Shown here: positions 1 through 12,431 of the stretch, one piece after another
Layout: every line of letters starts with the position of its first letter
Position numbering within the stretch: the stretch's first letter is position 1
Source: Candidatus Bathyarchaeia archaeon
Lineage (GTDB): Archaea; Thermoproteota; Bathyarchaeia; TCS64
Direction of reading: 5' to 3'
DNA: 12,431 bases
Assembly: GCA_050014495.1 (NCBI GenBank)
Contig: JBEKDF010000055.1
Coordinates: forward strand, 1 to 12,431
Notes under the pieces: generated by a model
What the model was told of the DNA's origin: nothing
The model's input: the letters and a program-made list of their open reading frames with translations, nothing else
The model's database searches: none
Program-made: the position numbers and the translations under genes

Positions 1-1411
1 ACCTGGACGGGACCTCTTCGCCCTTGAGCCGTCCCTGCACTCTGTCTCTCACTAACTCTCGAAACTCGGGGGCAACATGTTGGTAGACATCAGTCCCAAT
101 GATCTCCGAAGGGTCGGAGTATCCAAGGAGATCAGCTCCCCTCTTATTGACGAATATATATCGTGAGTCGTCGAGCACGAATACAGCGTCGTTAAGCGTT
201 TCTAGTAAGCGCCTATATTGGGTCTCGGAACTAGCAGCGACTCGTAAGTCATCAAGAAGCTTGTGAACACAACCAACGTATCTTGAGAGTAAGGAGAGAG
301 TATCAGTGTCAGCATCTGAGAAGGCTTCTTTTCTGCTGCTACGCAGATCGATTACGGCGACGACGCCCTCACCATTCTTTACTGGAATAGACAGTCCAGA
401 CCTCTGAGCGGTCTCCTCTAGTAGAGTTGGCTCTTTTAAAAAATCTCCCACACCCACAGGTTTACCTTCGCGGACTGCCCTAGCCATGGAGTTACTGCTG
501 CTTAACGGCATCCTGAGCCCACGAGCTCTCCAACGACGCTCAACACAGACAAGCTCATCCCCCTCCACAACCATGAAGCTTAGGACTTCAGAGTCAAAGC
601 TCGCCTCGACAGCGTCTAAGGTTCTCCTCGCAAGCTCATCCAAGTTTCTAGACAATAATATTTCGGGTGCCTGACTGTGGAGGGAGCGCAAACGATTCTC
701 CCTTCCCTGGGTCTCGGTAACATCGTTGATGAAGACTACGACTACTGAGGCATCCTTGCCTAGCATCTGGGTCTGAGATACACGTATCCTGCACTTTCTC
801 TGAACTCCATCCGAGCATAATATGGTTAGGCCAGTCTCGCCACCCTTCTGAAGCGTTGTCTGCACGCTGGTTCTGTCTGATATGATTGTGAAAGATGTCA
901 GGCTCTTACCAATGATCTCAGAGTGTTCTCTGGAGACAAGCCGCTCAAACGGGGGGCTAGCATATATTATCTTATCTCCCGACTCGACGACTACAGCGAC
1001 TTCCTCGGCATTAGCTATAGCTAGCGCGATATCGTCACTACGCCTATTCTCCACTATTTCTTTTATTCTCCTTGTAAGAGCCGGGGCCTGATCTAAGGAA
1101 CGCTGTATTACTAGGTATGCGTCGACGCCTACGTCAAATGCGCGGGAGGTTATATTCTCTGAGTCTTCCATAGAGTAGATTATTTGGGGAGCCCTCGAAA
1201 CACCCCTAAGTGTTATGGACAGCTCAATCGAGTCGAGAATCTGTGAATGCCCGATTAGAATACAATCAAAGCGTTCGTTTGTGCAGATAGTGATTGCTTC
1301 CACTGAGTTCATGATTTGCTCGAGGTGTAGCTCCGAGTCAAGTTCTTGAAAACGCTGCTTTATGAGCCCCCTCAGATCTCCATCTGGCTCAACATGGAGT
1401 ACCCTTATCAT
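1..1411 (-). CDS. Signal-transduction protein, degenerate REC-PAS-GAF-PAS (runs off the left edge; absent from the ORF track)
   Basis: Manual translation from ATG 1411 (GGTGA RBS at 1419-1423): MIRVLHVEPD...FDCILIGH...AFDVGVDAYL is receiver-like; KIIYASPPFERLV...EIIGKSL is PAS-like; RSGLSIPVKNGEGVVAVIDLRS...AFSDAD is GAF-like; YRRLLETLNDAVFVLDDSRYIFVNKRGAELLGY is PAS. The frame is open to the window edge. Confidence 0.9.
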   Translation of the reverse strand, partial: MIRVLHVEPDGDLRGLIKQRFQELDSELHLEQIMNSVEAITICTNERFDCILIGHSQILDSIELSITLRGVSRAPQIIYSMEDSENITSRAFDVGVDAYLVIQRSLDQAPALTRRIKEIVENRRSDDIALAIANAEEVAVVVESGDKIIYASPPFERLVSREHSEIIGKSLTSFTIISDRTSVQTTLQKGGETGLTILCSDGVQRKCRIRVSQTQMLGKDASVVVVFINDVTETQGRENRLRSLHSQAPEILLSRNLDELARRTLDAVEASFDSEVLSFMVVEGDELVCVERRWRARGLRMPLSSSNSMARAVREGKPVGVGDFLKEPTLLEETAQRSGLSIPVKNGEGVVAVIDLRSSRKEAFSDADTDTLSLLSRYVGCVHKLLDDLRVAASSETQYRRLLETLNDAVFVLDDSRYIFVNKRGADLLGYSDPSEIIGTDVYQHVAPEFRELVRDRVQGRLKGEEVPSR

Positions 1412-1644
1412 CCGGGCATCACCGGGGCTCGCCAGCGACAAACTTGTTCAAAATTGAGAGGAGAGAAGAGTGGTTATTGAGGTATGGGTGTCCCCCTCTA
1501 TGACACACATTAACCGAGCGCATCCAAATTCAAAATAATTCTGCAGCCTAGAGTTTTAACAACTTCGCTCGTTTCATTATTAAAAAAAGGATTTAAATTA
1601 TTAACTGTATATTAACTTTAAATTATACTGAGAATAAAGTCAAT

Positions 1645-2208
1645 TTATTGACTAATATTCAGACGATCATTAACCGCCTTAGCCAACATTAAACCAAGCG
1701 GGATTGTGTATAAGGCCAATGTAGCATTAAAGAAACCAATCAAAGGTAAATAGGCAATGGTAATATCAAGAGGTAGACTAAAACCAATCGGTGGAGGAAA
1801 AGGGAGAACAATCCAATTAAGGATAGTCATTACTATAACTCTCATTATCATACCGAGAATAGTTGATGCAATATTAGATATTTTTTCATTATAAATTTTT
1901 ATAAAAGTTAAATATAACTTTTTAACAATATAAATACCGGATAGCATGCTTAGTACTGCAATAAAATTATAAATTGGTCCAGTAGGCAATGCACCAGGAT
2001 ATATTAATAATAATATTAAGGTGTTAATAATAGATACTGAAACTCCCATTTGAAATCCATAAAGTATTGAAACAGTAACAATAGGTATTTCCCATAATTG
2101 ATAAATTAGAAAAGGTGCATAAGGTGCAGGAATCTTTATTGGAGAAATATTCAGAAACACAGTGAGAGCTGCAAATACGACTAAGATGGAGATTTTTTTT
2201 GAATCCAT
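1645..2208 (-). CDS. ECF transporter S component (substrate unknown)
   Basis: 187 aa with about 5-6 hydrophobic helices; IKIPAPYAPFLIYQLWEIP...G...G resembles the RibU-like S-component N-terminal pattern. Confidence 0.75.
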   Translation of the reverse strand: MDSKKISILVVFAALTVFLNISPIKIPAPYAPFLIYQLWEIPIVTVSILYGFQMGVSVSIINTLILLLIYPGALPTGPIYNFIAVLSMLSGIYIVKKLYLTFIKIYNEKISNIASTILGMIMRVIVMTILNWIVLPFPPPIGFSLPLDITIAYLPLIGFFNATLALYTIPLGLMLAKAVNDRLNISQ

Positions 2209-2541
2209 TAATGGTCTTAAGTAAAAACGGCATTACTGATTTAAAAGTAACTACTAATTCTTTGGTTGACTATCACCAAGTTTTAATGAAGACAATCCAA
2301 GGAAACAAATGAATTTAAATCATTGCAATAACGAGCGCAACGATAATTAAGTATCCGTAATTTAACTCGCATGCGCACGCATCTAAGGAATATACTTAGG
2401 TTATTTTTCAAAACAGATTAGTGTGTATTTCTGGTGTCACATTTCATGTCGATGAAGCTGAAGCCTTTGACCTAGAAACATGGACCATACCTTGTTACAG
2501 AAATTTACCATTATTTAGATTGCTACAAATTCTGATGTAGA

Positions 2542-2988
2542 CTAACCGAGACGGGATTCAGCTATCAAGCCATTAAGTACGTCTATTGCTTTTCCGGCAT
2601 CCCTCTTTTTTACTAATATATGATCCTTAAGATAAGTCGACAAAGCGTATATGCTCACCCCCGACTCAGCCAGAGCAGTAGCTATCACAGATAGAAAACC
2701 GACGATCGAGAGATCCAGAACAATATCAAACGTAATCAGCCTGTAAGGCCCCTCTTCCCTATACCCAAGGAAACTATCACTCATCTTAACCCAGTCGGAG
2801 GAACGTAAAACAAGAGAAACCTCATCGGAGGTGATTGTGTAGGAGGTGAATGGCTTCAGGTCGTTCACCAGTTCCCAGGCCTGCTTCCTCTGCCTCGGGT
2901 CTATGAAGACTATCAAGTAATCGTCTGGATGCTCCTTAATTAGAGTCTTGGCTAAAATCTTCTTCATGTCACTAGTAATTGGGACCAA
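2542..2988 (-). CDS. ACT-domain protein (ACT_7/CASTOR-type)
   Basis: LDLSIVGFLSVIATALAESGVSIYALSTYLKDHILVK is the typical ACT_7 signature. Only 1 nt separates it from the upstream gene, suggesting an operon. Confidence 0.85.
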   Translation of the reverse strand: MVPITSDMKKILAKTLIKEHPDDYLIVFIDPRQRKQAWELVNDLKPFTSYTITSDEVSLVLRSSDWVKMSDSFLGYREEGPYRLITFDIVLDLSIVGFLSVIATALAESGVSIYALSTYLKDHILVKKRDAGKAIDVLNGLIAESRLG

Positions 2989-2989
2989 G

Positions 2990-3592
2990 TCACTCGAGCT
3001 CCTGTATATTCTTTCCCTTAGCGTTTAACTCGATGATTCTCGCCGTAAGCTTTGGAGCCCTCTTCTTTAGGTTCTTCAGGAAGGCACGCGGCTTAGCAGG
3101 AGAAATCATATAGATCTTCGATCCGGACATCAGAAGGACTATGTTTGCCTCCGAGTTCGTGAAGTCGACGAAGCCAAGTCCCGATTTCCTCAGCCTCTCC
3201 GCACTCACCTTCGTGTAGTTCAGTGCCTCCTCAGGAACGTCTCCAGGTTCTCTGATATAGACCTCTGCACGCACTATCTCTTTGTAAGGGAGGAATACAC
3301 TCCTCTTCAATAGTCTACGAATTCTTAGACCACTCTCTTCCAAAGTGTATCTGCTGGTGTAGACGGGTACCATGAAAGGGAGAACCAGACCGAGTGCCAA
3401 TGTTGCAGCCGATACGAGTATATTGCTAATGAAGTCCTCGGAATTCGTAGGTACCCCCGCGAGGTACAAGGTCACTGTGTTGTAGGCACTGAATACGAAC
3501 AAGGGGAGGTTAATACCCGGTATGATTATCCCGAGCAACTTCCTCTTTGTCATAAGGGGGAGAGCCTCAACTCGCTCGATCTGCTCTGCCAA
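2990..3592 (-). CDS. Membrane protein with two TM helices and a bacterial PH-like domain
   Basis: Two hydrophobic segments, then YTLEESGLRIRR...LPYKEI and a terminal YMISPAKPRAFLKNL motif typical of bPH families. Confidence 0.65.
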   Translation of the reverse strand: MAEQIERVEALPLMTKRKLLGIIIPGINLPLFVFSAYNTVTLYLAGVPTNSEDFISNILVSAATLALGLVLPFMVPVYTSRYTLEESGLRIRRLLKRSVFLPYKEIVRAEVYIREPGDVPEEALNYTKVSAERLRKSGLGFVDFTNSEANIVLLMSGSKIYMISPAKPRAFLKNLKKRAPKLTARIIELNAKGKNIQELE

Positions 3593-3686
3593 AGGCGATC
3601 CACTCAGAATACGGGGTCAAGTTTAAAAATAGTGCATAAACTCAACCCTTTTATTGACAACGTCGGCTGTACTCTGAGGCTCCAAA

Positions 3687-4232
3687 ATGGTCGAAATAAG
3701 CGATCAGGAAGTGGTGGTTCTACGTCTGGGTCATAGGCCCTCTAGGGATAAGAGAGTATCAACCCACTTACTCCTGGCTGCCAGAACATTTGGGGCCAAG
3801 AGGGCATACTACACCGGTACCCAGGATTCCTCCCTTGAAGAGTCGATCAGGAAGATAACTATGGATTGGGGTGGGAGTTTCACGCTCGAATATAACAGGA
3901 ACTGGAAGACCATCCTCAGTGAATGGGAGGGCAAAATTGTCCACCTCACGATGTACGGTTTACTCTACCAAGGGATTATCAGTGAGATACGCTCAGACCC
4001 GTCACCCAAACTAGTCATCGTCGGTGGGGCGAAGGTACCCGGGGAAGTCTATGGCGCTGCTGACTGGAACATCGCTGTGACGGGACAGCCACACTCTGAG
4101 GTGAGTGCCCTTGCAATGTTTCTGCACGAGCTGTACGAGGGCAGGGAACTGCTGCTAGATTTCCCCGGAGCCCGTCTAACCGTAATTCCGCAGGCAAAAG
4201 GTAAAAAACTCAAAACTACGAATTCCCGTTAA
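3687..4232 (+). CDS. trm56: tRNA (cytidine(56)-2'-O)-methyltransferase, archaeal SPOUT family
   Basis: VLRLGHRPSRDKRVSTH, VHLTMYG, VGGAKVPGEVY..ADWNIAVTGQPHSEVSALA and IPQAKGK are aTrm56 motifs. Confidence 0.96.
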   Translation: MVEISDQEVVVLRLGHRPSRDKRVSTHLLLAARTFGAKRAYYTGTQDSSLEESIRKITMDWGGSFTLEYNRNWKTILSEWEGKIVHLTMYGLLYQGIISEIRSDPSPKLVIVGGAKVPGEVYGAADWNIAVTGQPHSEVSALAMFLHELYEGRELLLDFPGARLTVIPQAKGKKLKTTNSR

Positions 4233-4267
4233 TAGGTAATTATTTTATAACAACATAGCGCGCGCGC

Positions 4268-4832
4268 CGGCTTACAAATATATTTACTAAATCGTTCATA
4301 TCATATAGCGGAAAGATTTGAGCAATCCGAAAGATATGTAGATATTGAACCTATTAATGCAACTACATGCTCATATGAATATGCAAGTATATTAAGAGAT
4401 ATAGGAAGTGTATTTGGTTCATTTATTGATAAAATGATTCGATTAACATCTAATACTAAAATAATTGGACAATTGGATATAACTAATTATAGAAAATTTC
4501 TAATTGATGAAATAAGTAATATAGATGAAGTATGCGCCGAGATGAACGCAAGTTATAGAGAAAAATATCTTTATCCTTTTGCAGATATAAAAAATACTTC
4601 TAAATCATTAAAATGGTGGAAAGCTTATACTGATTTAAAACATACAGACGTTGATGCAAGGGATCAAGGGTGCTTATCTAATATATTATATGGACTTGCT
4701 GCATTGGAAATTTTAACTGCATTATTTGACGAGTATTTCCATACTAGACGTCATATATATCAAATTGGAGTTTACTCAAATTACTTTGTTAAAAAAGAAG
4801 ATATATTACGTGATTTCACATTTCCAATTTAA
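4268..4832 (+). pseudogene. Uncharacterised protein with a WWxAYxxxKH motif, probably 5'-truncated
   Basis: The frame is open from 4251 (stop at 4248-4250) with protein-like YLLNRSYHIAERFEQSERYVDIEPINATTCSYEYASILRDIGS before the first ATG at 4434. There is no in-frame ATG/GTG/TTG upstream of 4434. Very AT-rich. Confidence 0.6.
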
Positions 4833-4900
4833 ATTAGTTATAATAAATGATCAAACTGCGCAATGCATGTATAAGGTACCTGCGACTATCCCAAAAACCC

Positions 4901-5542
4901 TCAACATTCTACTCGCGAGCAAGCATCTTTTTGTTTTTTTGTAAGATATCTCTTTATCATTGTTTTAGGCTCTAGCCAACCTACTATTAATGTTACAAAG
5001 GCCAAGACTACACTTAAGATGAAATAGTAATCTGCTTGTTGACTTGCTTCAACGTATTCTGAGGATACAACTGTAAAGGGCTTATAGGGTATATCTTGTT
5101 CCCATAAGCCTAGTGGCAAAGTAGCTATACCAGAAGTCTTTAGTAAATACTGTGAATTGTAACCCACATTACCATATTTTGAGGTAATATTCGCAAATGC
5201 TGTAAAAGAACCTTGACCAACTGGATTAAAGTCTGGAAAAGATATTTCCTCATAATCTCCTACTTTTAGTTGAGTAATATTTTCTGAACCAAGAACGTAT
5301 TTATAATCTCCAATTACCCATGCATTTATTGTCCCATTCGGAAAGGTCTTATCTCCAACATTTTTAAGAATAACAGAAATCGTGATTGGATGGTTCTGAA
5401 GAGGATATCCTAATTCGCCATCGACAACAATTTGAACTTTAAGGATATAATCTGTAGAGTTTCCATAAGTAGCTAAAGAAACATTAAAAAAACTAATGAA
5501 TAAAAGCATAAACGAGAATACTCCAATGATTTTTGTATTCAC
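4901..5542 (-). CDS. Exported, C-terminally anchored Ig-like (CARDB-like) protein
   Basis: Probable GTG start at 5542 gives a signal peptide (NTKIIGVFSFMLLFISFFNVSLA). ITISVILKNVGD is CARDB-like, and there is a C-terminal TM helix followed by a basic tail. Confidence 0.65.
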   Translation of the reverse strand: MNTKIIGVFSFMLLFISFFNVSLATYGNSTDYILKVQIVVDGELGYPLQNHPITISVILKNVGDKTFPNGTINAWVIGDYKYVLGSENITQLKVGDYEEISFPDFNPVGQGSFTAFANITSKYGNVGYNSQYLLKTSGIATLPLGLWEQDIPYKPFTVVSSEYVEASQQADYYFILSVVLAFVTLIVGWLEPKTMIKRYLTKKQKDACSRVEC

Positions 5543-5627
5543 AAAAGAACACTTAAACGCGCGCTCAATTTTAGATTTTATGATCAAAAAAAAAATTGTT
5601 AACACTTTCGTGGCACGTGCAACGGCC

Positions 5628-5719
5628 TGTTAAACATTCATATTTTTTTGCTAATTTAGAACGCAAAAGACCAAAATTGACCGTTAAACTACCACCATTG
5701 GTGCCATGTTAAACATTCA
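5628..5719 (+). repeat. 13-bp direct repeat TGTTAAACATTCA x2, with a partial GTTAAAC copy between
   Basis: Exact copies at 5628-5640 and 5707-5719; GTTAAAC at 5683-5689. Confidence 0.8.
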
Positions 5720-5740
5720 AGTCATTCTGTGCATGACCAT

Positions 5741-5911
5741 TCAGGGATGTGGAAAGTAATAACCAATTAAAAAGAAGAGAACAGCGGTAGCGATGCATAG
5801 TAAAGTGGTAAGTGTAAGCATTTTTCTCCGCTCCCTTCTAAGCCTCTCAAAATCTTGTTTTAGCTTTTCAACAGATCGACTCAGTGCTTGATCATCATTA
5901 CTAATGCCCAT
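5741..5911 (-). CDS. Small coiled-coil plus single-TM protein
   Basis: MGISNDDQALSRSVEKLKQDFERLRRERRK followed by a hydrophobic helix. The ORF-track start at 6016 is an alternative. Confidence 0.5.
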   Translation of the reverse strand: MGISNDDQALSRSVEKLKQDFERLRRERRKMLTLTTLLCIATAVLFFLIGYYFPHP

Positions 5912-6073
5912 GTAAAAGAAGAGGATGTCATCCACTTTAATGAATTTCGAGCGATGTGTGTAGGGCCATAGCCTTTTCTCCCAAACCCATCTACACATAA
6001 TAGTTAATTTATTCATATTTTGGTTCTGAGATGCGCGCGCGCAAAAAATATTAGAATATAGAGACTCATTTAA

Positions 6074-6523
6074 TCACTTGAGCCCCTTCTCCATCTGACT
6101 GGATACGGAATTCACCACCCACGACGCGATGAAACCGCTAGATGCCTGCTTGGCCAATAGAAGCCTATCATAATAGGTTTGAACTCTCCAGACCTTACCA
6201 TCCTTGATCTCGGCCACAGCGACGCATGGGACACTCATCTTCCCACCACTAGTTGTACCCTCCATCAGGTACTCATGTGTGACCAGGTTACCTGAGGCGG
6301 TAATTCTCAGCTCTGTAAACTTCAAGTTTGTGATCTTGGACTCTTCCGCTCTTCTGAACGACCATTCGAAGTATCGCTTATTCTCGACCTTACCCTTGAA
6401 AATCCCATCTGGGGAGGTGGCGATGACGTCGTCAGCAGTGAAGGAGATGGCCCCATCGATATCCTTCCTGTTCAACGCCTCGTGGATGCCCTGCAGCACC
6501 TTACACGGGTCTTCTCCCGACAT
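6074..6523 (-). CDS. SnoaL/NTF2-like fold protein
   Basis: EALNRKDIDGAISFTADDV...G.FKGK...EIKDGKVWRVQTYYD. Start ATG 6523 follows AGGTGAAGGTG. Confidence 0.88.
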   Translation of the reverse strand: MSGEDPCKVLQGIHEALNRKDIDGAISFTADDVIATSPDGIFKGKVENKRYFEWSFRRAEESKITNLKFTELRITASGNLVTHEYLMEGTTSGGKMSVPCVAVAEIKDGKVWRVQTYYDRLLLAKQASSGFIASWVVNSVSSQMEKGLK

Positions 6524-6711
6524 ATACCACACCTTCACCTTTCATTGGCGATTAACGCCACTGTATACATAAGAGATAACTGCTCTTAACGCTTTCCAAT
6601 CGCGCGTATGTTGCCTTTTATAATCACTTTAATGGCCATCAGCTAATAGATACAGTATCCTGATAGAGGAGGTCCACATTACTTTAATATTCTCGTAAAT
6701 ATGTCGAAGCC

Positions 6712-6987
6712 TTGAATAGATCAGGCATCGAGCTACGTGGCGATGTATTAAGTCAGATTAAAAATGGGATTGACACGCCGTCTAGGATCAGTTACTCGGT
6801 GAATTGTAATTGGCAGCAGCTGCGTCTCTTTCTGAGCGAGTTTGTAGATCAGGGGCTTGTAGTGTGTTTGGTTGAGGGAGAAACATCGAGGAAGAAGAAA
6901 CGTTATGTGATCACGCTGAAAGGAGAGGAAGTTTTGAGCTGCGTAGATAATTTCAGGCGTTTAGTGGGTGTGGAGAACGGAGTTTAG
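6712..6987 (+). CDS. Winged-helix transcriptional regulator (archaeal COG3432/HTH_45-like)
   Basis: RSGIELRGDVL...TPSRISYSVNCNWQQLRLFLSEFVDQGLV...YVITLKGEEVL. Confidence 0.85.
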   Translation: MNRSGIELRGDVLSQIKNGIDTPSRISYSVNCNWQQLRLFLSEFVDQGLVVCLVEGETSRKKKRYVITLKGEEVLSCVDNFRRLVGVENGV

Positions 6988-6998
6988 CCTCAGTTTCA

Positions 6999-7192
6999 GC
7001 GCGCGTACCATCGCTTTCTGAGACTGCTTTATCTATCAATCTTCCCAGCTGAATAATATCCCCAGCATCAAAAATATGCCCATAAACACAGTTCCAATCT
7101 GAGAGCTTTTCATTTACGAACTCTTCTACAGAATTTTTTAAGTCTTCAGACCAATTCTTGTCACAAAACGTTTTCTTCATACGTTTCTCCAT
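6999..7192 (-). pseudogene. Hypothetical gene, probably a 5' fragment ending at a (GC)n tract
   Basis: Strong RBS GAGGTGA (7197-7203) before ATG 7192. The frame has no stop before the tract at 6999-7008 and reads on antisense into the wHTH gene (stop at 6953). Confidence 0.5.
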
Positions 7193-7386
7193 TCTTTCAC
7201 CTCGCCCTTTTGCCCGTGCGCCCCTCAACTCTAGTCGAAACCTTCCCCATCCAACATATATATGCTTAAAATGAATATATATCAGGTTTTGTATGCTTCT
7301 AAGTTATACAAATCCATCATTATAAGTATTTACGACAAAATATTTACATTTTGTCTATAGAGTTTTTGTGTGTGTTTTTTTTGTTT

Positions 7387-7560
7387 TTAGATCTCAACCT
7401 GCGCGCGCTCTGATGCCGAGTTGTCCGCATTTCCTTTGAAACTCATGCTGTAGATCGTGGTTGGGGAGACCATAATCTGGTAAGCGAGCAGTGAATATGC
7501 GGATAGTGAACATAGGACTCCAAGCAAAGTGACGACTAGAAGGACCTTCTCTATGTTCAT
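7387..7560 (-). pseudogene. Signal-anchor N-terminal fragment of a membrane or exported protein
   Basis: MNIEKVLLVVTLLGVLCSLSAYSLLAYQ, a short polar stretch, then the frame crosses the tract at 7400-7408 (ERAQ) and stops a few codons later. Confidence 0.45.
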
Positions 7561-7655
7561 GCTTGTCACTAATACGCTCGCGCACAGAGGTATCTTATTC
7601 TTGGAATAAACATTAAAGGTGGAAACTCATAAGTTCACACCCGAGGCTGACATTA

Positions 7656-8540
7656 GTGTCCTACATACTACCTGAAGTCATCCTATTTGGCTCAGTGTTC
7701 TCACTCTACGCCGTTAGCCAGACGCTGAGGCACAACGCCTCAGGCATACCCGACTTCTCAATCACATACTACACGGGACTCGGAGCCCTAGCCGCCACAA
7801 CGACGACCCAGGTGCTAGGCCTCAACGTCTACCTCTCCATACCCGCAGCGTTTGCCTTGGGGTGCCTCCTGGGCGCGGTCTATTACCACACCGTGATGAG
7901 AAGGATGGAAAAGAGGGGAGACAGCGCTGTGCTGAGGACCCTGTCTACCATAGGGCTCTCACTCCTCCTCGGAGCCACGGCAGAAATAGTCTACTACCTG
8001 AAGCCGTTCGGGGTCTGGGAGCTCATGGCCTACGACTTCACGGTCGGCGAACTAAATGGTGCCTTAATCGTATCGGCTGCACTGGCTGCATTAGTGACGG
8101 CCTCTCTGTCGATCTACCTCAGGAGGACGACGCTTGGATTAACGACCAGGGCCTCTGAGGAGAACCCCGAACTCGCGATGGTTTGCGGCCTGGATCCATG
8201 GAAGATAAAATTGGTGTCCTGGACTTTATCGGGCGGCCTGGCAGCGGTCACCGGGGTGTTACTCCCCCTTTTCATGTGCTACGTGCCCAGTTTCGACGTG
8301 ACCTCGCTCACCACCGTGTTCGCCTCCAGCATACTGGGTGGCTTTAGGTCGATCCCCCGGGTCGTGTTGGCGTGCTTCATAGTGATGGCGATTCAGTTCT
8401 ACGGGATATACTTCCTTCAGCTACTTTATGGTAATCAGCTGGGTGAGTGGTCCCAACTGATTCCGATTATGGTGATCGTTCTGTCTCTACTCACGTATCC
8501 GAGGCTACTGAAAGACAGTCCATTTCAATTCACACAATAG
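7656..8540 (+). CDS. Branched-chain amino acid ABC transporter permease (LivH-like), orphan
   Basis: RRTTLGLTTRASEENPELAMVCGLDPWKIKLVSWTLSGGLAAVTGVL and FASSILGG are BPD_transp_2 signatures. Confidence 0.9.
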   Translation: MSYILPEVILFGSVFSLYAVSQTLRHNASGIPDFSITYYTGLGALAATTTTQVLGLNVYLSIPAAFALGCLLGAVYYHTVMRRMEKRGDSAVLRTLSTIGLSLLLGATAEIVYYLKPFGVWELMAYDFTVGELNGALIVSAALAALVTASLSIYLRRTTLGLTTRASEENPELAMVCGLDPWKIKLVSWTLSGGLAAVTGVLLPLFMCYVPSFDVTSLTTVFASSILGGFRSIPRVVLACFIVMAIQFYGIYFLQLLYGNQLGEWSQLIPIMVIVLSLLTYPRLLKDSPFQFTQ

Positions 8541-8750
8541 CAGTGCGGTAATCTTATCCAAATCTCCTCTAGTCTTTGCACTTGCAGACCAGGATGAGTG
8601 TGTGAATTAAGTACGCGCGCGAGTACCTCTATAATGATGGAAGAAAATTGCCACTTCGGGGTTTGGATTTGGAGGATAAGACTATGCCCCCACACACACA
8701 AAATGCGCGTAAAGTTCTAAACACTATATATTACACACTAATTTGACAAT

Positions 8751-9068
8751 ATGTCCTATGGATATGGAAAACTTCAGAGTCCCATATGGACCAGAAAACA
8801 CAGCTACGTAACCCTGCTCTCCCTATTGTTCATCTTCTTAACATTCTTCCCCGTGAGTGTCGCGTTGGCAAATGGACCCCCGGACGTCGCTGGCACCTAT
8901 ACATCATACGGTTTCCCTTTTACGTGGCTCACCGTAAAAATTGGGATATCCACCACCTACCAGATTACCAGCGTATCGGGCCTTCTGCTAAACCTCTGCT
9001 TTAACATAGTCATTAGTACTGTCATTGTGTATCCTCAGAAAGTGGCGCAGCTACTAAGCAAGAATTAG
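8751..9068 (+). CDS. Small two-TM membrane protein with a YGFPF motif
   Basis: Hydrophobic helix, loop containing SYGFPFTWL, second hydrophobic helix. Confidence 0.7.
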   Translation: MSYGYGKLQSPIWTRKHSYVTLLSLLFIFLTFFPVSVALANGPPDVAGTYTSYGFPFTWLTVKIGISTTYQITSVSGLLLNLCFNIVISTVIVYPQKVAQLLSKN

Positions 9069-9086
9069 ATCGAGGGCGCACGCTCA

Positions 9087-9530
9087 TTATCGAGAGAGTA
9101 TTAATAGAGCCTCTTGGATTCGCTCGAACATCACAAACCTCGAATATAGGGGTATCAGTACAATAAACTCCACGAATACGATTAATTCATAGTAGAGAAG
9201 CACCCTGGACTCATACCACCTCTTCCCAAGACTGATAAGAGACCAGATGAAAGCGATGCCGGCAATTAAGTATCCAATCTCTATATTCAGTTGAGTAGAT
9301 TGATAGAATTGCGTAGAATAATATGAATATGGGTCTCCGGGTAGCATTGCTTTTTGTGGTCCTAGGGGTCCGGAGAAATACAACAGAAATAGCATCAGAA
9401 TATAGGTTAGTGTAACGTGTACCCAAGAGTACCTTGGGCGTATTCTGTATCCGATTATTGCTGGAGCGAGGATGATTGAGAGACCAAGTATTGGGCCAAT
9501 AATAGCATCCACTAGATTATTTACCATCAA
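9087..9530 (-). CDS. Hypothetical membrane protein, about four TM helices
   Basis: 147-aa ORF with four hydrophobic segments. Confidence 0.7.
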   Translation of the reverse strand: MMVNNLVDAIIGPILGLSIILAPAIIGYRIRPRYSWVHVTLTYILMLFLLYFSGPLGPQKAMLPGDPYSYYSTQFYQSTQLNIEIGYLIAGIAFIWSLISLGKRWYESRVLLYYELIVFVEFIVLIPLYSRFVMFERIQEALLILSR

Positions 9531-9657
9531 CTTTCAGATGGGTCTATAACATAATAAGAGTTAACCTATTGAGACTCATGGAAGGCGCGCGCGCACTCGT
9601 AGAGGTTACTAATTTTTTTAAAACAATGCATATGTAATGCGCGCGCATCCGAATTGA

Positions 9658-10506
9658 TCAGCCATTAATTGAAGATGCAACAAAGACTTGAACATCATCA
9701 AAATAACAATTTGTGTTCGACTTAATCGCAGCAACCCCAAAATATTGCAAAGCGTAAGGATTTGTTTTGTCATTACCTGAAGAGATATCCTTGATGTTCG
9801 AAGCCACAAGCGAGTCATTTATCCAAACATTGAAATTATCTGTGTCCCTATCAAGTATAACCTTAATTTTATACCAAGTATTGGGCGAATAACCCTGCAA
9901 CTCGTCATGGCAGCCCATCAACATTTGAGTGCCATTGACATCAGCGAATTGTACAAGTGCGTGCCAAGCAGTTGAAGAATTCTCAGGAATATTGATGAGG
10001 AAACCAACCCTCAACGATGCATAGGTCGTGAAGCTATCCACTTTCCCATAAACCTGATAACCGATGAACCTCGCGTTGGTTGAGAAACTCCTGACACCAA
10101 TTGTGGTGAACCAATAATCCGCTGGTGCTGTTAATTGTAGCGATTTTGTTCGTGAGATGTATGTAGAATCCGTGATCGCTCCCTCTGTGTTGTACCAGAA
10201 CTGCCAATTTTGAGTTGGAAGAGTTCCCACGGTGTAGCCCTCGAAGTTATCCAACAAGGGATTGGTGGCATCGATTACCTGCGAGTTGTAATTGGTTGTC
10301 GGTGGAGAGGTGGTAGATTGTAAGAGTTGGTTGATTCTGTCGTTCATTGTCGCAGCTTCATTTTGAAGCAAGTTTACCTCTATCTGTAAGTTATTTATTT
10401 GATTTTGCATTGATGATGAGGAGGTTTGCTCCATAACAATGAATAAAGCGCCAACTCCAATTAGAAAACCTGTGGCTAAACCAATGAGTAAAATCTTATA
10501 ATCCAT
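9658..10506 (-). CDS. Membrane-anchored protein: TM, coiled coil, S/T/P linker, ConA-like lectin/glucanase-type beta-sandwich
   Basis: Probable start ATG 10506 (MDYKILLIG...). DNFEGYTVG and YSPNTWYKIKVILD...FNVWIND...YFDDVQV are typical of LamG/ConA-like domains. Confidence 0.7.
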   Translation of the reverse strand: MDYKILLIGLATGFLIGVGALFIVMEQTSSSSMQNQINNLQIEVNLLQNEAATMNDRINQLLQSTTSPPTTNYNSQVIDATNPLLDNFEGYTVGTLPTQNWQFWYNTEGAITDSTYISRTKSLQLTAPADYWFTTIGVRSFSTNARFIGYQVYGKVDSFTTYASLRVGFLINIPENSSTAWHALVQFADVNGTQMLMGCHDELQGYSPNTWYKIKVILDRDTDNFNVWINDSLVASNIKDISSGNDKTNPYALQYFGVAAIKSNTNCYFDDVQVFVASSING

Positions 10507-10656
10507 GATCTGTAGTTGCCAAGTAAAGATAAAAGATATTCTATTATGCACGTGAATAGCCTTATCCTAGCTTCACTCTGGGGACTGGTTGAAGCTGATC
10601 CGCGCACGCCTCAATAGCCTTATCCTCACCTCCACTTGATACTCAACCAATGTTGT

Positions 10657-11205
10657 ATGGTTGATGCGCAGACGATTGGAGTATTGGTTACGACAGCAAG
10701 CGTGACAGTGGCGGCGATATATTACATGTTCACCCTCAGAATCAACATGAGGACACAGCAACTAGCACTCAAGGCACAGGAGCAGAACTTGGAGACGAGA
10801 CAAGCCCAACTGTTCATGCCAATATACGCGAAGATGTATGATCCCGACTTCATTGAAGGAAACGCCAAGGCATTCGGCATCGAGTGCAAGGACTTCGACG
10901 ACTTCAACTCAAAGTGCAGCTACGAGAGCAACCCGGACCTGTACAGAAGTTTCTGGTCATTAGGATGGTACATGGAGGGCTTAGGGGTCCTAGTCAAGAG
11001 GGGTCTGATAAGCCCCGAGCTTGTGGATGACCTAATGTCTGGAACAGTCATCGCGTGGTGGGAGAGGTTTGAGCCAATGATTAGCGGGCTGAGGACTAGA
11101 AACCCCTCGGCCGCTGAAAACGTTGAGTACACGTACAGAATGGTCAAGCAGATAGCCGTCAGTGAACACCCTGAGATCATGGAGAGAAGGGTCGAAGTGA
11201 CGTAG
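10657..11205 (+). CDS. DUF4760-like protein, paralog 1 (N-terminal TM anchor)
   Basis: MVDAQTIGVLVTTASVTVAAIYY...ETRQAQLFM...DFDDFNSK...EGLGVLVKRGLI...WERFEPMI...ENVEY. Family assignment is by recognition, not a search. Confidence 0.75.
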   Translation: MVDAQTIGVLVTTASVTVAAIYYMFTLRINMRTQQLALKAQEQNLETRQAQLFMPIYAKMYDPDFIEGNAKAFGIECKDFDDFNSKCSYESNPDLYRSFWSLGWYMEGLGVLVKRGLISPELVDDLMSGTVIAWWERFEPMISGLRTRNPSAAENVEYTYRMVKQIAVSEHPEIMERRVEVT

Positions 11206-11259
11206 CATTAGACATAGCCTTATCCACATTCCCACCTGATTCTTCTTCAGTGATGATTA

Positions 11260-11802
11260 TTGGTTGATCTATCTGAGATTCAGGCTGCCTATTATATGGT
11301 GGCAGCAACCGGAGTACTCGTAGCAGCAGTATTCTACATAGCGAATCTAAGGGAAACAACACGGAACAGAAAAGCGACGTTCGAAAACAATGTTATGCAA
11401 AATATGTTTACCCCCCTGTTTAATCAACTTTACATGGAAATCATGAGTATGCAGTGGACCGACTTCGAGGACTTCAAGAGGAAATATGATTCAAGCGTAA
11501 ATCCACAGAACTTCGTAAATAGAAACATCATCTGGGGATATTATGATAGCCTTGGCAAGCAGCTTCGGCAAGGAGTCATCGACATCGATTCATTCTCTGA
11601 CCATTGGTGTGTTGCGGTTGTGAGGGTTTGGCACAAGTTTAAGCCTATAATTGAGGGTTATCGGGGATGGCAGTGGCCGAGTGGGTATTATAGGGACTTC
11701 GAGTATCTGGCTGTGGCTCTAGAGAAGAAGCTTATGGATGAGGACCCCGACTTCATGAAAAAGTTTAGTAACATTATTTCACCTCGAGAGGTTCATCAGT
11801 AA
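11260..11802 (+). CDS. DUF4760-like protein, paralog 2
   Basis: Same layout as paralog 1: VAAVFY...WTDFEDFKRKY...LG..LRQGVID...WHKFKPII...FEYL. TTG start after GTGATG. Confidence 0.78.
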   Translation: MVDLSEIQAAYYMVAATGVLVAAVFYIANLRETTRNRKATFENNVMQNMFTPLFNQLYMEIMSMQWTDFEDFKRKYDSSVNPQNFVNRNIIWGYYDSLGKQLRQGVIDIDSFSDHWCVAVVRVWHKFKPIIEGYRGWQWPSGYYRDFEYLAVALEKKLMDEDPDFMKKFSNIISPREVHQ

Positions 11803-11843
11803 TCTTATCCAAACCTCCACCTGACTCTAACCAGTGATGATTA

Positions 11844-11927
11844 ATGGTTGATCTAGTAGAGGTTCAGGCAGCCTACTACATGGTGGCCGCAACGGGGGTA
11901 CTAATCTATCACGTTTTAGTAGTTTAA
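11844..11927 (+). pseudogene. Truncated paralog 3 (27 aa)
   Basis: MVDLVEVQAAYYMVAATGVLIYHVLVV*. The first 20 residues match paralog 2 (MVDLSEIQAAYYMVAATGVL) at 18 of 20 positions, then similarity ends. Confidence 0.88.
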
Positions 11928-12142
11928 TGTTCGCATCAATTCTGGATTATTTTTAAGGTGTCTTTGGCATAATCTTATCCTCACTTCCATTGGATATTCG
12001 AAAAATCTTAACCCAAATTCACTTTGGCATAAATCTCAATGAATAAAATACCACCATTTCGAATTATGTATAAGACGTTTATTAATATCCGAATTTAGCT
12101 AAAGTTATATATATAAGTGTTATATTTATTATGTGATAAGAG

Positions 12143-12334
12143 TTGAATAGGATTGAAAGATTCCTTCTCCCTTATTCAAGCGAGAAAACAGTTAGGGTTT
12201 ACAAAGTCCATTTGAAGAAATTTTTCTCTACATTTGGAAAGGTAAATAATCTTGAAGAATCTGCTGAGGAGTATTTTACTCAAAAGCGTGACTATGAAGA
12301 GAATGTGGTGCGCGCTGGCTCGTCCCTAAAATAG
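12143..12334 (+). pseudogene. N-terminal (core-binding, SAM-like) fragment of a tyrosine recombinase/integrase
   Basis: IERFLLPYSSEKTVRVYKVHLKKFF matches the integrase N-terminal S.xTxxxYxxxLxxF pattern. No catalytic domain follows; the frame ends just after GTGCGCGC at 12308-12315. TATA-rich stretch at 12105-12125. Confidence 0.65.
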
Positions 12335-12431
12335 GTACACACCCAGAATCATTGAAACAAACAGAGACACCACCCCCAGACGAAAACAGGAAACACTCAG
12401 AGAGCCAAACCAAGCCCACAGCCAGCCCAAC

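What the first reader, a model, noticed from the sequence alone, without database searches (positions are those of the whole stretch)
4258..12315. Accessory gene mosaic joined at (GC)n / alternating-RY tracts: candidate undescribed gene-capture or shuffling system
Seen: about 18 short self-complementary RY tracts, e.g. GCGCGCGCGC 4258, ATGCGCGCGCGCA 6031, GCGCGCGTAC 6999, TGCGCGCGC 7400, GTACGCGCGCG 8611, GCGCGCGCGCAC 9585, ATGCGCGCGCAT 9637 and GTGCGCGC 12308. Every gap between genes from 4233 to 10610 has at least one, often within ~20 nt of a start or stop and in otherwise AT-rich DNA. I saw no GCGCGC hexamer in 1-4232 or inside intact genes. The segments between tracts (about 40 bp to 1.7 kb) carry none, one or a few genes in either orientation, and base composition visibly shifts between many of them. 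Established: (CG)n is palindromic, so joins are orientation-independent, and it is the sequence most prone to Z-DNA. Inference: the tracts are crossover cores of a low-specificity recombination or DNA-capture process that builds an integron-like array without attC sites.
Basis: partly seen in the sequence, partly recalled or inferred. Interest (0 to 1): 0.88.

Follow-up and report, generated by a model that had tools for sequence, protein, structure and literature searches.

The report
GC-repeat marks of archaeal jumping genes
The short GCGCGC... runs between the accessory genes of this peat archaeon are real and occur genome-wide at places where DNA segments were joined, lost or copied, and they are likely the end marks and leftover scars of one family of jumping genes, not the sites of an integron-like gene-capture system.

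Summary
The window has ten (GC)n runs of 6-10 nt, all in 4258-12315 and none in the conserved part 1-4232. Alternating purine-pyrimidine tracts in general are at chance level. The runs are not special to this island: the genome has 645 runs of 7 nt or more, 477 of them intergenic, 5- to 85-fold over a Markov expectation, and almost none longer than 10 nt. They abound only in this genus and are not conserved in position between species.

The runs do mark seams. Ends of repeated segments fall on them 6- to 50-fold more often than expected, and three runs sit at deletion joins inside genes that are intact in a sister species.

The same runs flank both ends of an IS1182/IS5-like insertion-sequence family: 16 of 16 full copies in five species, and 37 of 184 contig ends here. 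The window itself ends in such an element at 12310.

My reading: transposon end marks and scars (confidence 0.6), not an integron-like system. Open points: one relative has many runs but no detectable element, the fillers come from neither parent sequence, and the 10-nt cap is unexplained.

This scan reached similar readings before on other DNA of this genome and genus.

The parts
1..4232 (.). Conserved core part: PAS/GAF sensor, membrane protein, ACT protein, bPH protein and aTrm56. It holds no (GC)3 run.
   Evidence: Pfam hits. DNA matches in 14 of 17 congeners cover 1-4223 only. No GCGCGC/CGCGCG hexamer.
4258..4267 (.). (GC)5 run at the core/accessory boundary, 26 nt after the Trm56 stop codon.
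   Evidence: Genus synteny ends at 4216-4223. Homology to G016:C14 starts at 4272, 5 nt after the run, and G016 has no run there. Bridged by contig record 10 of run X3, 1733-5767, with 0 differences.
5558..5564 (.). CGCGCGC run just upstream of the likely start of the secreted-protein gene 4901-5545.
5741..6016 (-). 91-codon gene. A 215-bp, 91%-identical fragment of it lies on contig C13 (41823-42037), bracketed by ATGCGCGCGCGCAT and ATGCGCGCGCAT.
6033..6042 (.). (GC)5 run in the 57-nt spacer between two minus-strand genes.
   Evidence: Bridged by X3 record 11, 5867-9548.
6601..6606 (.). CGCGCG run in the spacer between the SnoaL-like gene and the HTH_45 gene.
6999..7005 (.). GCGCGCG run inside the last 16 codons of ORF 6953-7228. 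This would fit a truncated gene end, which is an inference.
7401..7408 (.). (GC)4 run in the last codons of the small ORF 7387-7569.
7656..8540 (+). Lone LivH-type ABC permease gene on a segment of 52% GC (7409-8613) bounded by runs. It has no partner genes beside it.
   Evidence: PF02653 match. Best relative in the genus is only 41% identical. No DNA paralogue in the genome.
8614..8621 (.). CGCGCGCG run in the spacer after the permease gene.
9585..9594 (.). (GC)5 run. It lies 17 nt beyond the end of homology to contig C34.
9639..9646 (.). (GC)4 run about 10 nt past the stop codon of gene 9658-10551. Homology to the 89%-identical copy on C79 ends here, and C79 also has a run there.
10636..11802 (+). 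Two DUF4760 paralogues. Each follows a conserved 5' module of about 130 nt that occurs at more than 50 places in the genome. This is a separate repeat family, not bounded by (GC)3 runs.
12143..12309 (+). 5' stump of a tyrosine-recombinase gene, cut off at the insertion sequence.
   Evidence: The G002 orthologue (L016) runs on uninterrupted and has no (GC)3 at this point. The 3' part is not in the assembly.
12310..12315 (.). GCGCGC run at the junction with the insertion sequence.
12316..12431 (+). Left terminus of an IS1182/IS5-like insertion sequence (inverted repeat TGGCTCGTCCCTAAAAT...). It runs off the contig.
   Evidence: 100% identical to the ends of contigs C49 and C51. A full copy on C5 carries a 279-codon DDE transposase.

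Best explanation
The (GC)3-5 runs are a genome-wide, mostly intergenic mark that flanks both ends of an IS1182/IS5-like insertion-sequence family in this genus. The hundreds of bare runs, including nine of the ten in the window, are likely scars that these elements left where they inserted, deleted or carried along neighbouring DNA and were later lost.

Shown:
- The runs are enriched, capped at 10 nt, specific to the genus and not conserved in position.
- They sit at the ends of repeated segments and at deletion joins.
- Every full element copy examined has them at both ends.
- The window's last run is such a junction.

Inferred:
- The elements carry GCGC or longer GC repeats at their tips, or create them on joining.
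- Element-mediated deletions, captures and truncations therefore place a run at each new seam.
- Loss of the element leaves one clean run of 6-10 nt. The loss could be by excision with end-joining, since Ku is present in the genus, or by deletion between its two self-complementary flanking runs.

On this reading the accessory half of the window is DNA that these elements have reshuffled many times.
For: 1. Link to the element.
- 37 of 184 contig ends of the genome stop about 120 nt inside an element whose inverted repeat is preceded by a GC run of 5-10 nt (my count of its list).
- 53 element ends found by pattern all carry GCGC next to the inverted repeat, with 1-6 further alternating bases.
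- 35 of 39 element termini found by BLAST have a run of 6 nt or more.
- 16 of 16 full copies of four inverted-repeat types, in G000, G002, G007, G012 and G016, have alternating GC at both ends. 13 of the 16 have 6 nt or more on both sides.

2. Same statistics. Runs beside elements and bare runs share the 10-nt cap and the same length profile (chi-square 1.96, 3 d.f., p 0.58). They also share the preference for T outside the run.

3. Runs beside elements that do not come from the target.
- In G016:C16, run-element-run replaces about 420 bp of a gene that is intact in G000 C1. Neither break point there has a (GC)3.
- On C30, an element end plus GCGCGCG is joined to another element type at a position where the intact copy has no GC run.
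- In the window, the intact G002 orthologue has no (GC)3 at the cut.

4. Decay stages.
- G002:C10 holds 38 nt of an element end between two 8-nt runs.
- 13 of 25 internal truncation points of element copies abut a run.
- MITE-like pairs of element ends 370-520 bp apart occur across the genus.

5. Lineage pattern.
- Counts of GCGCGCGC range from 1 to 512 in the 18 genomes of the genus and from 0 to 15 in the 13 genomes searched outside it.
- They rise with the count of element ends (Spearman 0.58, n = 18 related genomes).
- The two genomes with one run each have one or no element end.

6. No conservation of position. Of 56 spacers collinear between G000 and 388 kb of G002, 9 hold a run in G000, 7 in G002 and 1 in both.

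7. Ku is present in 15 of 18 genomes, so resealing of donor sites by end-joining is plausible.
Against: - G015 (2.5 Mb in 20 contigs) has 177 GCGCGCGC hits and typical bare runs. It has no element-end pattern, no PF01609 or IS1182-model match, and no element fragment in about 45 kb around 15 runs. G013 has 351 hits and one element end.
- The window has no element remnant beside its nine bare runs.
- No empty/filled pair of one site was found. The C5 copy is occupied in all four independent runs laid, and no run-length variant appeared in the window.
- Every case listed under point 3 of the evidence for can also be read as two steps: a written run first, then an element landing in it.
- The window's own junction is not a simple insertion, because the rest of the recombinase gene is missing.
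- The 8-10 nt fillers at three deletion joins come mostly from neither parent sequence. The scar model then needs several steps: insertion, deletion and loss.
- The sharp cap at 10 nt is not explained.
- The correlation across genomes is moderate (0.45 per Mb, p 0.06), and the genomes are kin.
Confidence: 0.6

Rival explanations
1. Landing pads plus an independent writer. A host end-joining or repair route would write short (GC)n fillers wherever broken DNA is rejoined. The insertion-sequence family, like some IS1182-family members that target palindromes, would then insert into these palindromes and duplicate them at both ends.
For: - Fillers of 8-10 nt at three deletion joins (G000 against G002), and at 13 of 25 truncation points of element copies, come mostly from neither parent sequence.
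- G015 and G013 are rich in runs without detectable elements.
- The left/right lengths of all 16 full copies fit duplications of 4, 6 or 8 nt of a target of 10 nt or less (my arithmetic).
- IS1272 of the IS1182 family targets inverted repeats. Its authors' model includes a path that duplicates the whole palindrome at both ends (PMC5678879: abstract and sections 22 and 29 read).
- Ku is present.
Against: - No candidate writer was identified. Ku is also present in the two genomes with one run each.
- Only 38 of 644 runs are occupied by an element. The flanks of element ends suggest typical targets of 2-8 nt, not the common 8-10 nt runs.
- A template-free activity that makes strictly alternating GC capped at 10 nt is not known to me (recalled).
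- This reading needs two coincident events at G016:C16 and at C30.
Confidence: 0.22
2. Functional intergenic signal. The runs would be binding sites for a chromatin or regulatory protein, or Z-DNA or cruciform elements kept by selection.
For: - 477 of 645 runs of 7 nt or more are intergenic.
- The length is tightly capped at 10 nt, about one helical turn.
- The density per intergenic kb is flat across local GC classes.
Against: - Position is not conserved: 1 of 15 run-bearing collinear spacers is shared with G002.
- Counts vary from 1 to 512 among congeners.
- All spacer types are hit roughly in proportion to their length, with no fixed distance to gene starts or stops.
- There is no flank consensus.
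- Runs occur at gene-internal deletion joins.
Confidence: 0.06
3. The runs would be crossover cores of a low-specificity site-specific recombination or DNA-capture system that builds an integron-like array.
For: - Segments bounded by runs on both sides exist: C51:7553-8460, C33:5071-5405 and C13:41823-42037.
- Segments in the window differ in composition and gene orientation.
- Tyrosine-recombinase genes lie near some runs.
Against: - No array-specific recombinase was found, and the window's recombinase gene is a stump cut by the element.
- The runs are genome-wide, not clustered in one array.
- Runs appear as fillers at plain deletions inside genes, which exchange between two existing cores would not produce.
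- No excised-circle joint at a run was seen in eight laid run sets.
Confidence: 0.05
4. Assembly or amplification chimeras joined at palindromic microhomology.
For: - The genome is a 92-contig metagenome bin with 7.5% contamination.
- Many contigs break at repeats.
Against: - Contigs of run X3, not marked as a possible source, cover 1733-5767 and 5867-9548 with no difference. They bridge the runs at 4258, 5558, 6033, 6601, 6999, 7401 and 8614.
- Eight runs, each from a different coded study, hold half or more of the stretch's sampled words.
- The same pattern is present in other assemblies of the genus.
Confidence: 0.01

Closest known systems
IS1182-family insertion sequences, in particular IS1272 of Staphylococcus (PMC5678879; abstract and sections 22 and 29 read)
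   Same: - A DDE transposase whose best NCBIfam match is the IS1182 model.
- Terminal inverted repeats and a length of 1.2-1.7 kb.
- An association with palindromic DNA at the insertion site. A published model has a palindrome ending up duplicated at both element ends.
   Different: - The transposases are short (264-322 codons, against a model of 488 positions) and score below the curated cut-off (78-169 against 270 bits).
- The palindrome is always a bare alternating GC run of 4-10 nt, not a varied stem-loop.
- IS1272 was reported to replace its target inverted repeat without duplication.
- Hundreds of bare runs at deletion and capture seams are not described for IS1272.
Excision footprints of cut-and-paste DDE transposons, such as Stowaway/mariner-type elements (PMC4561436, search listing only; the rest recalled)
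   Same: - Short marks made of the target duplication plus a few terminal bases stay where an element has left.
- They accumulate with the number of moves while the copy number stays flat.
   Different: - Footprints are hardly known in prokaryotes (recalled).
- These marks are pure (GC)n, up to 10 nt, and also sit at deletions of 0.2-2 kb.
- No empty/filled/excised series of one site was seen here.
REP/BIME extragenic palindromes and the insertion sequences that target them, such as IS1397 (recalled; not read here)
   Same: - Hundreds of short GC-rich intergenic palindromes.
- An insertion-sequence family found inserted in them.
   Different: - REPs have a conserved sequence of 20-40 nt, and many are conserved in position.
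- These runs have no flank consensus and are not conserved in position.
- They appear as new fillers at deletion joins.
Insertion sequences that insert at DNA breaks together with large deletions and without target duplication (bioRxiv 10.1101/2024.06.02.596822; abstract only)
   Same: The copy in G016:C16 sits where about 420 bp of a gene are missing. The window's element abuts a truncated gene whose other part is gone.
   Different: That work reports no GC-repeat mark and no later loss of the element that leaves a scar.
Integron gene-cassette arrays
   Same: A row of unrelated small genes separated by short self-complementary sites.
   Different: - No attC-type sites of 57-141 nt and no IntI beside an attI/Pc (features recalled).
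- Genes lie in both orientations.
- The sites are spread over the whole genome.

Membership tests
IS1182 family (insertion sequence) | Transposase reaches the curated score of the family model (NF033551, 270 bits). | tested here: not met
   78.2, 95.6, 132.3 and 168.6 bits for the four element types. It is still the best-scoring family for all four. No genome match over the cut-off in G000.
IS1182 family (insertion sequence) | DDE catalytic domain of the DDE_Tnp_1 type. | tested here: met
   PF01609, E 9e-14, 52 bits against a cut-off of 23, for the C5 copy. The other three types were not scanned against Pfam.
IS1182 family (insertion sequence) | Terminal inverted repeats bounding a 1.3-1.95 kb element with one transposase gene (size range recalled). 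| tested here: met
   Inverted repeats match at 18-25 of 30 positions. Element lengths are 1185-1658 bp, each with one ORF of 264-322 codons.
IS1182 family (insertion sequence) | Insertion at palindromic targets, with variable or absent target duplication. | tested here: inconclusive
   All 16 full copies are flanked by palindromic GC runs. Whether these are target, duplication or part of the element could not be settled.
IS5 family (insertion sequence) | Transposase reaches the curated score of an IS5 model. | tested here: not met
   Best is NF033581 at 54-80 bits against a cut-off of 140.
Transposon excision footprint | The same site seen empty, occupied and, after excision, with the mark made of duplication plus terminal bases. 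| tested here: inconclusive
   No such series was found. Laid contigs show the C5 copy occupied in 4 of 4 runs. Only indirect stages were seen.
Integron cassette array | attC recombination sites (imperfect inverted repeats of tens of nt) at each cassette end, and cassettes in one orientation. | tested here: not met
   The sites are bare runs of 6-10 nt without flank consensus. The genes of the window lie on both strands.
Integron cassette array | An intact integron-type integrase next to the array. | tested here: not met
   The only recombinase gene in the window is a 63-codon stump cut by the element, with no Pfam hit. IntI-specific features were not tested.
REP-like extragenic palindrome | A conserved sequence beyond the core, with many copies conserved in position between related species. 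| tested here: not met
   No consensus beyond T/A next to the run. 1 of 15 run-bearing collinear spacers is shared between G000 and G002.
Ku-dependent end-joining scars | The presence of Ku tracks the presence of the scars. | tested here: not met
   Ku (PF02735) is in 15 of 18 genomes, including G001 and G010, which have one run each. Ku is thus permissive at most.

The most novel reading that the evidence does not exclude
The alternating GC runs are written de novo at DNA ends, either by the transposase's own end chemistry (for example off-centre opening of hairpinned GC tips, which would lengthen a palindromic tip) or by a host end-joining polymerase. Every rejoined break, deletion or captured fragment in this archaeal genus would then be stamped with a readable palindromic filler of at most 10 nt, and the insertion sequences would then use these fillers as landing pads.
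Probability: 0.2. Interest if true: 0.8.

Novelty: new variant of a known kind. Interest (0 to 1): 0.5.

Why it matters
If the runs are transposon marks, they give a base-precise record of where an archaeal genome was cut, lost DNA, or gained and copied fragments. About 600 such seams are readable in this one genome. They would also show that donor sites of a prokaryotic cut-and-paste element can be resealed and kept, which is rarely documented.

The non-parental fillers of 8-10 nt at deletion joins, and the strict 10-nt cap, point to an end chemistry that is not described for IS1182/IS5-type elements. For annotation, it means that 'cassette-like' islands in this genus are transposon-churned DNA and not a new capture system.

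I found no paper on this in four full-text searches. These cover open-access papers and preprints only.

Tried and rejected
- Element remnants beside the window's bare runs. BLAST with words of 7 nt against 16 element copies found only chance-level hits apart from 12310-12431.
- An empty allele of an occupied site. Contigs of runs X3-X6 laid on the C5 copy show no joint that skips the element.
- Run-length or presence variants in the window. None was listed in runs X3, X8, X9 and X10. These are contigs, which drop rare variants.
- The missing 3' part of the window's recombinase gene, which would have shown the other junction. It is not in the assembly; only paralogues of 24-35% identity were found.
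- A repeat at the start of G015 contig C1, where a run lies 123 nt from the end as at element-bearing contig ends of G000. The 122 nt are single-copy.
- Repeats or element fragments around 15 G015 runs: none.
- A link between run density and low-GC 'island' composition: the density per intergenic kb is flat at 1.2-1.7.
- A fixed position relative to genes, as a promoter or terminator would have: all four spacer types are hit, with broad distance distributions.
- The idea that the element tip is GCGC with a 4-nt duplication. I rejected it because 27 of 53 flanks are not GCGC, while nearly all end in GC on both sides.
- A first script for finding inverted repeats timed out and was rewritten.

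Full report
**What the window is.** The window is the whole of contig C55 of a 92-contig, 3.11-Mb genome bin with 49.3% GC. It encodes an archaeal aTrm56. Near-identical DNA is held by peat metagenome runs. Earlier notes of this scan call the organism a Bathyarchaeon; I did not test that.

Positions 1-4232 carry a PAS/GAF sensor, a membrane protein, an ACT protein, a bPH protein and Trm56. DNA matches in 14 of 17 congeners cover only 1-4223. The rest, 4233-12431, has only scattered matches and is accessory DNA.

**The observation.**
- Ten runs of alternating G and C of 6-10 nt lie in 4258-12315, and none lies in 1-4232.
- Composition differs between the delimited segments, from 0.25 to 0.52 GC.
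- The broader class of alternating purine-pyrimidine tracts is not enriched: 48 observed against 48.7 +/- 7.1 in shuffles.
- Several gene gaps lack a (GC)3 run, and two runs lie in the last codons of small ORFs.

**The runs are genome-wide.**
- GCGCGC occurs 1470 times and CGCGCG 1180 times, against 200-621 for six other GC-only palindromic hexamers.
- Run lengths are 7 nt: 186, 8 nt: 192, 9 nt: 144, 10 nt: 111, then 11 nt: 5 and 12 nt: 4. An order-3 Markov model gives 145, 39, 6, 1.3, 0.7 and 0.3. My pattern missed bare CGCGCG 6-mers.
- With a crude ORF map (85.7% coding), 477 of 645 runs of 7 nt or more are intergenic.
- They occur in divergent, convergent and tandem spacers roughly in proportion to spacer length, with no preferred distance to starts or stops.
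- Flanks show no consensus except T before and A after the run.
- Density per intergenic kb is flat across local GC classes, at 1.2-1.7.
- It is lower in spacers between blocks collinear with G002 (0.40 per kb) than in all intergenic DNA (1.07 per kb). The runs are thus enriched about 2.5-fold in non-syntenic DNA but are common in the core as well.

**Relatives.**
- GCGCGCGC counts range from 1 (G001, G010) to 512 (G000) within the genus. They are 0-15 in the 13 genomes of other genera searched.
- I compared G000 with 388 kb of its closest relative G002, where blocks are about 77% identical. Of 56 collinear spacers, 9 hold a run in G000, 7 in G002 and 1 in both.
- This speaks against a conserved functional site.

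**The runs mark seams.**
- In a self-comparison of the genome, unique end points of repeated segments of 100 nt or more lie within 10 nt of a run in 98 of 1078 intergenic cases, where 3.0% is expected.
- For repeats of 85% identity or more, the figures are 57 of 322 intergenic end points, and 23 of 248 coding end points where 0.19% is expected.
- Examples touching the window:
  - Homology to G016:C14 starts 5 nt after run 4258.
  - Homology to the C79 paralogue stops at run 9639, and C79 has a run there too.
  - A 215-bp copy of gene 5741-6016 on C13 is bracketed by two runs.
- Elsewhere, C51:7553-8460 and C33:5071-5405 are copies bounded by runs on both sides, while their partner copies are not.
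- Against G002, three G000 runs sit exactly where 2249, 208 and 1485 bp are missing inside genes. Most of each 8-10 nt filler is in neither parental sequence.

**The element.**
- The last 116 nt of the window are 100% identical to the ends of contigs C49 and C51.
- A full copy on C5 is 1.29 kb long, has imperfect terminal inverted repeats, and encodes a 279-codon protein with a DDE_Tnp_1 domain. Its best NCBIfam model is IS1182, below the cut-off, and the next best is IS5.
- It is flanked by CGCGCGCGC on the left and GCGCGCGC on the right.
- 37 of 184 contig ends stop about 120 nt inside such elements, right after a GC run.
- 53 ends found by pattern all have GCGC beside the inverted repeat plus 1-6 more alternating bases, never more.
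- 16 of 16 full copies of four inverted-repeat types in five species have GC runs at both ends. The left/right lengths are 9/8, 8/6, 9/4, 8/8, 6/6, 8/6, 8 (interrupted)/8, 7/7, 5/9, 6/8, 6/6, 7/8, 6/8, 7/8, 6/6 and 10/8.
- In G000, 38 of 644 runs of 7 nt or more are beside an element and 606 are bare.
- Runs beside elements and bare runs share the 10-nt cap and a similar length profile.

**Which came first?**

Three observations show runs beside an element that the target did not supply:
- In G016:C16, run-element-run replaces about 420 bp of a gene that is intact in G000, and neither break point has a (GC)3 there.
- On C30, an element end with GCGCGCG is joined to another element type at a position where the intact copy has no GC run.
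- In the window, the G002 orthologue of the cut recombinase gene has no (GC)3 at the cut.

Apparent decay stages also exist:
- 38 nt of an element end lie between two 8-nt runs in G002.
- 13 of 25 internal truncation points of element copies abut a run.
- Short MITE-like pairs of ends occur across the genus.

Run counts rise with the count of element ends over the 18 genomes. Spearman is 0.58, or 0.45 per Mb, and the genomes are kin. Ku is present in 15 of 18 genomes, which would allow donor sites to be resealed.

From this I infer that the elements carry or create GC-repeat tips, that they place a run at each seam they make, and that they leave one run behind when lost.

**What speaks against this.**
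- G015 (20 contigs) has 177 hits and typical bare runs, but no element end, no DDE_Tnp_1 or IS1182-model match, and no element fragment near 15 runs. G013 is similar but fragmented.
- Each 'non-parental' case can also be read as a written filler that an element later hit. Members of the IS1182 family are reported to target palindromes (PMC5678879).
- The window's junction is not a plain insertion, since the rest of the gene is absent.
- I found no empty/occupied pair of one site.
- The cap at 10 nt has no explanation.

I therefore give the scar reading 0.6, and the reverse reading (written fillers used as landing pads) 0.22.

**Other rivals.**
- A conserved binding or structural signal is unlikely, given the lack of positional conservation and the 500-fold spread of counts among congeners.
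- An integron-like system is unlikely. There are no attC-like sites and no intact array integrase, genes lie in both orientations, the runs are spread genome-wide, and fillers occur at plain deletions.
- Chimeras are excluded. Contigs of run X3, not marked as a possible source, cover 1733-5767 and 5867-9548 with no difference and bridge seven of the ten runs.

**The window, read this way.** After the conserved Trm56 gene comes a stretch churned by these elements:
- small orphan genes;
- a lone, divergent LivH-type permease gene on a 52%-GC segment, at most 41% identical to any copy in the genus;
- two members of a large DUF4760 family;
- a recombinase stump;
- a resident element at the contig end.

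Nine bare runs would be the remaining seams.

**Literature and earlier notes.** Four full-text searches found no description of GC-run-flanked insertion sequences or of such runs in archaeal intergenic DNA. Subscription journals and ISfinder texts were not searchable.

This scan reached similar readings before on other pieces of this genome and on other genomes. I used those notes as leads and re-tested the main claims here. They are not independent support.

Noticed in passing
window 10609-11903 (modules start at about 10609, 11213 and 11796): The DUF4760 genes belong to a very large family. Each gene follows a conserved 5' module of about 130 nt (an upstream ...ATAGCCTTATCC... motif plus the first codons). 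The module matches more than 50 places in G000, many of them in tandem arrays spaced about 620 bp apart on small contigs (C84, C72, C77, C74, C50), and also occurs in relatives. Contig depth in that bin is about 13-fold the neighbours. The module starts right after CGCGCACGC at 10601-10609.
   Followed up: partly
window 11968-12038: A 71-nt repeat that holds the same AATCTTATCC motif occurs at many places in G009, G011 and G013 and at four places in G000. It may be an empty boundary unit of the DUF4760 arrays.
   Followed up: no
window 1572-2449: This low-GC (26-33%) stretch with the membrane-protein gene 1645-2208 lies inside the otherwise conserved part. It is not matched in the syntenic stretch of the closest relative G002 but is matched in G012.
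   Followed up: no
L016 2720-3932 (G002:C28): The G002 orthologue of the window's cut recombinase gene is itself split into ORFs of 98 and 309 codons by a stop or frame change near L016 3016.
   Followed up: no
G000 C33:31102-31761: An element copy has an internal deletion (about positions 650 to 1116 of the element) closed by a 10-nt CGCGCGCGCG. The left break lies at a CGCG of the intact element.
   Followed up: partly
genus-wide: A Ku homologue (PF02735, 120-139 bits) is present in 15 of 18 genomes of this archaeal genus. The control search found Ku in only 1 of 14 well-known genomes.
   Followed up: no
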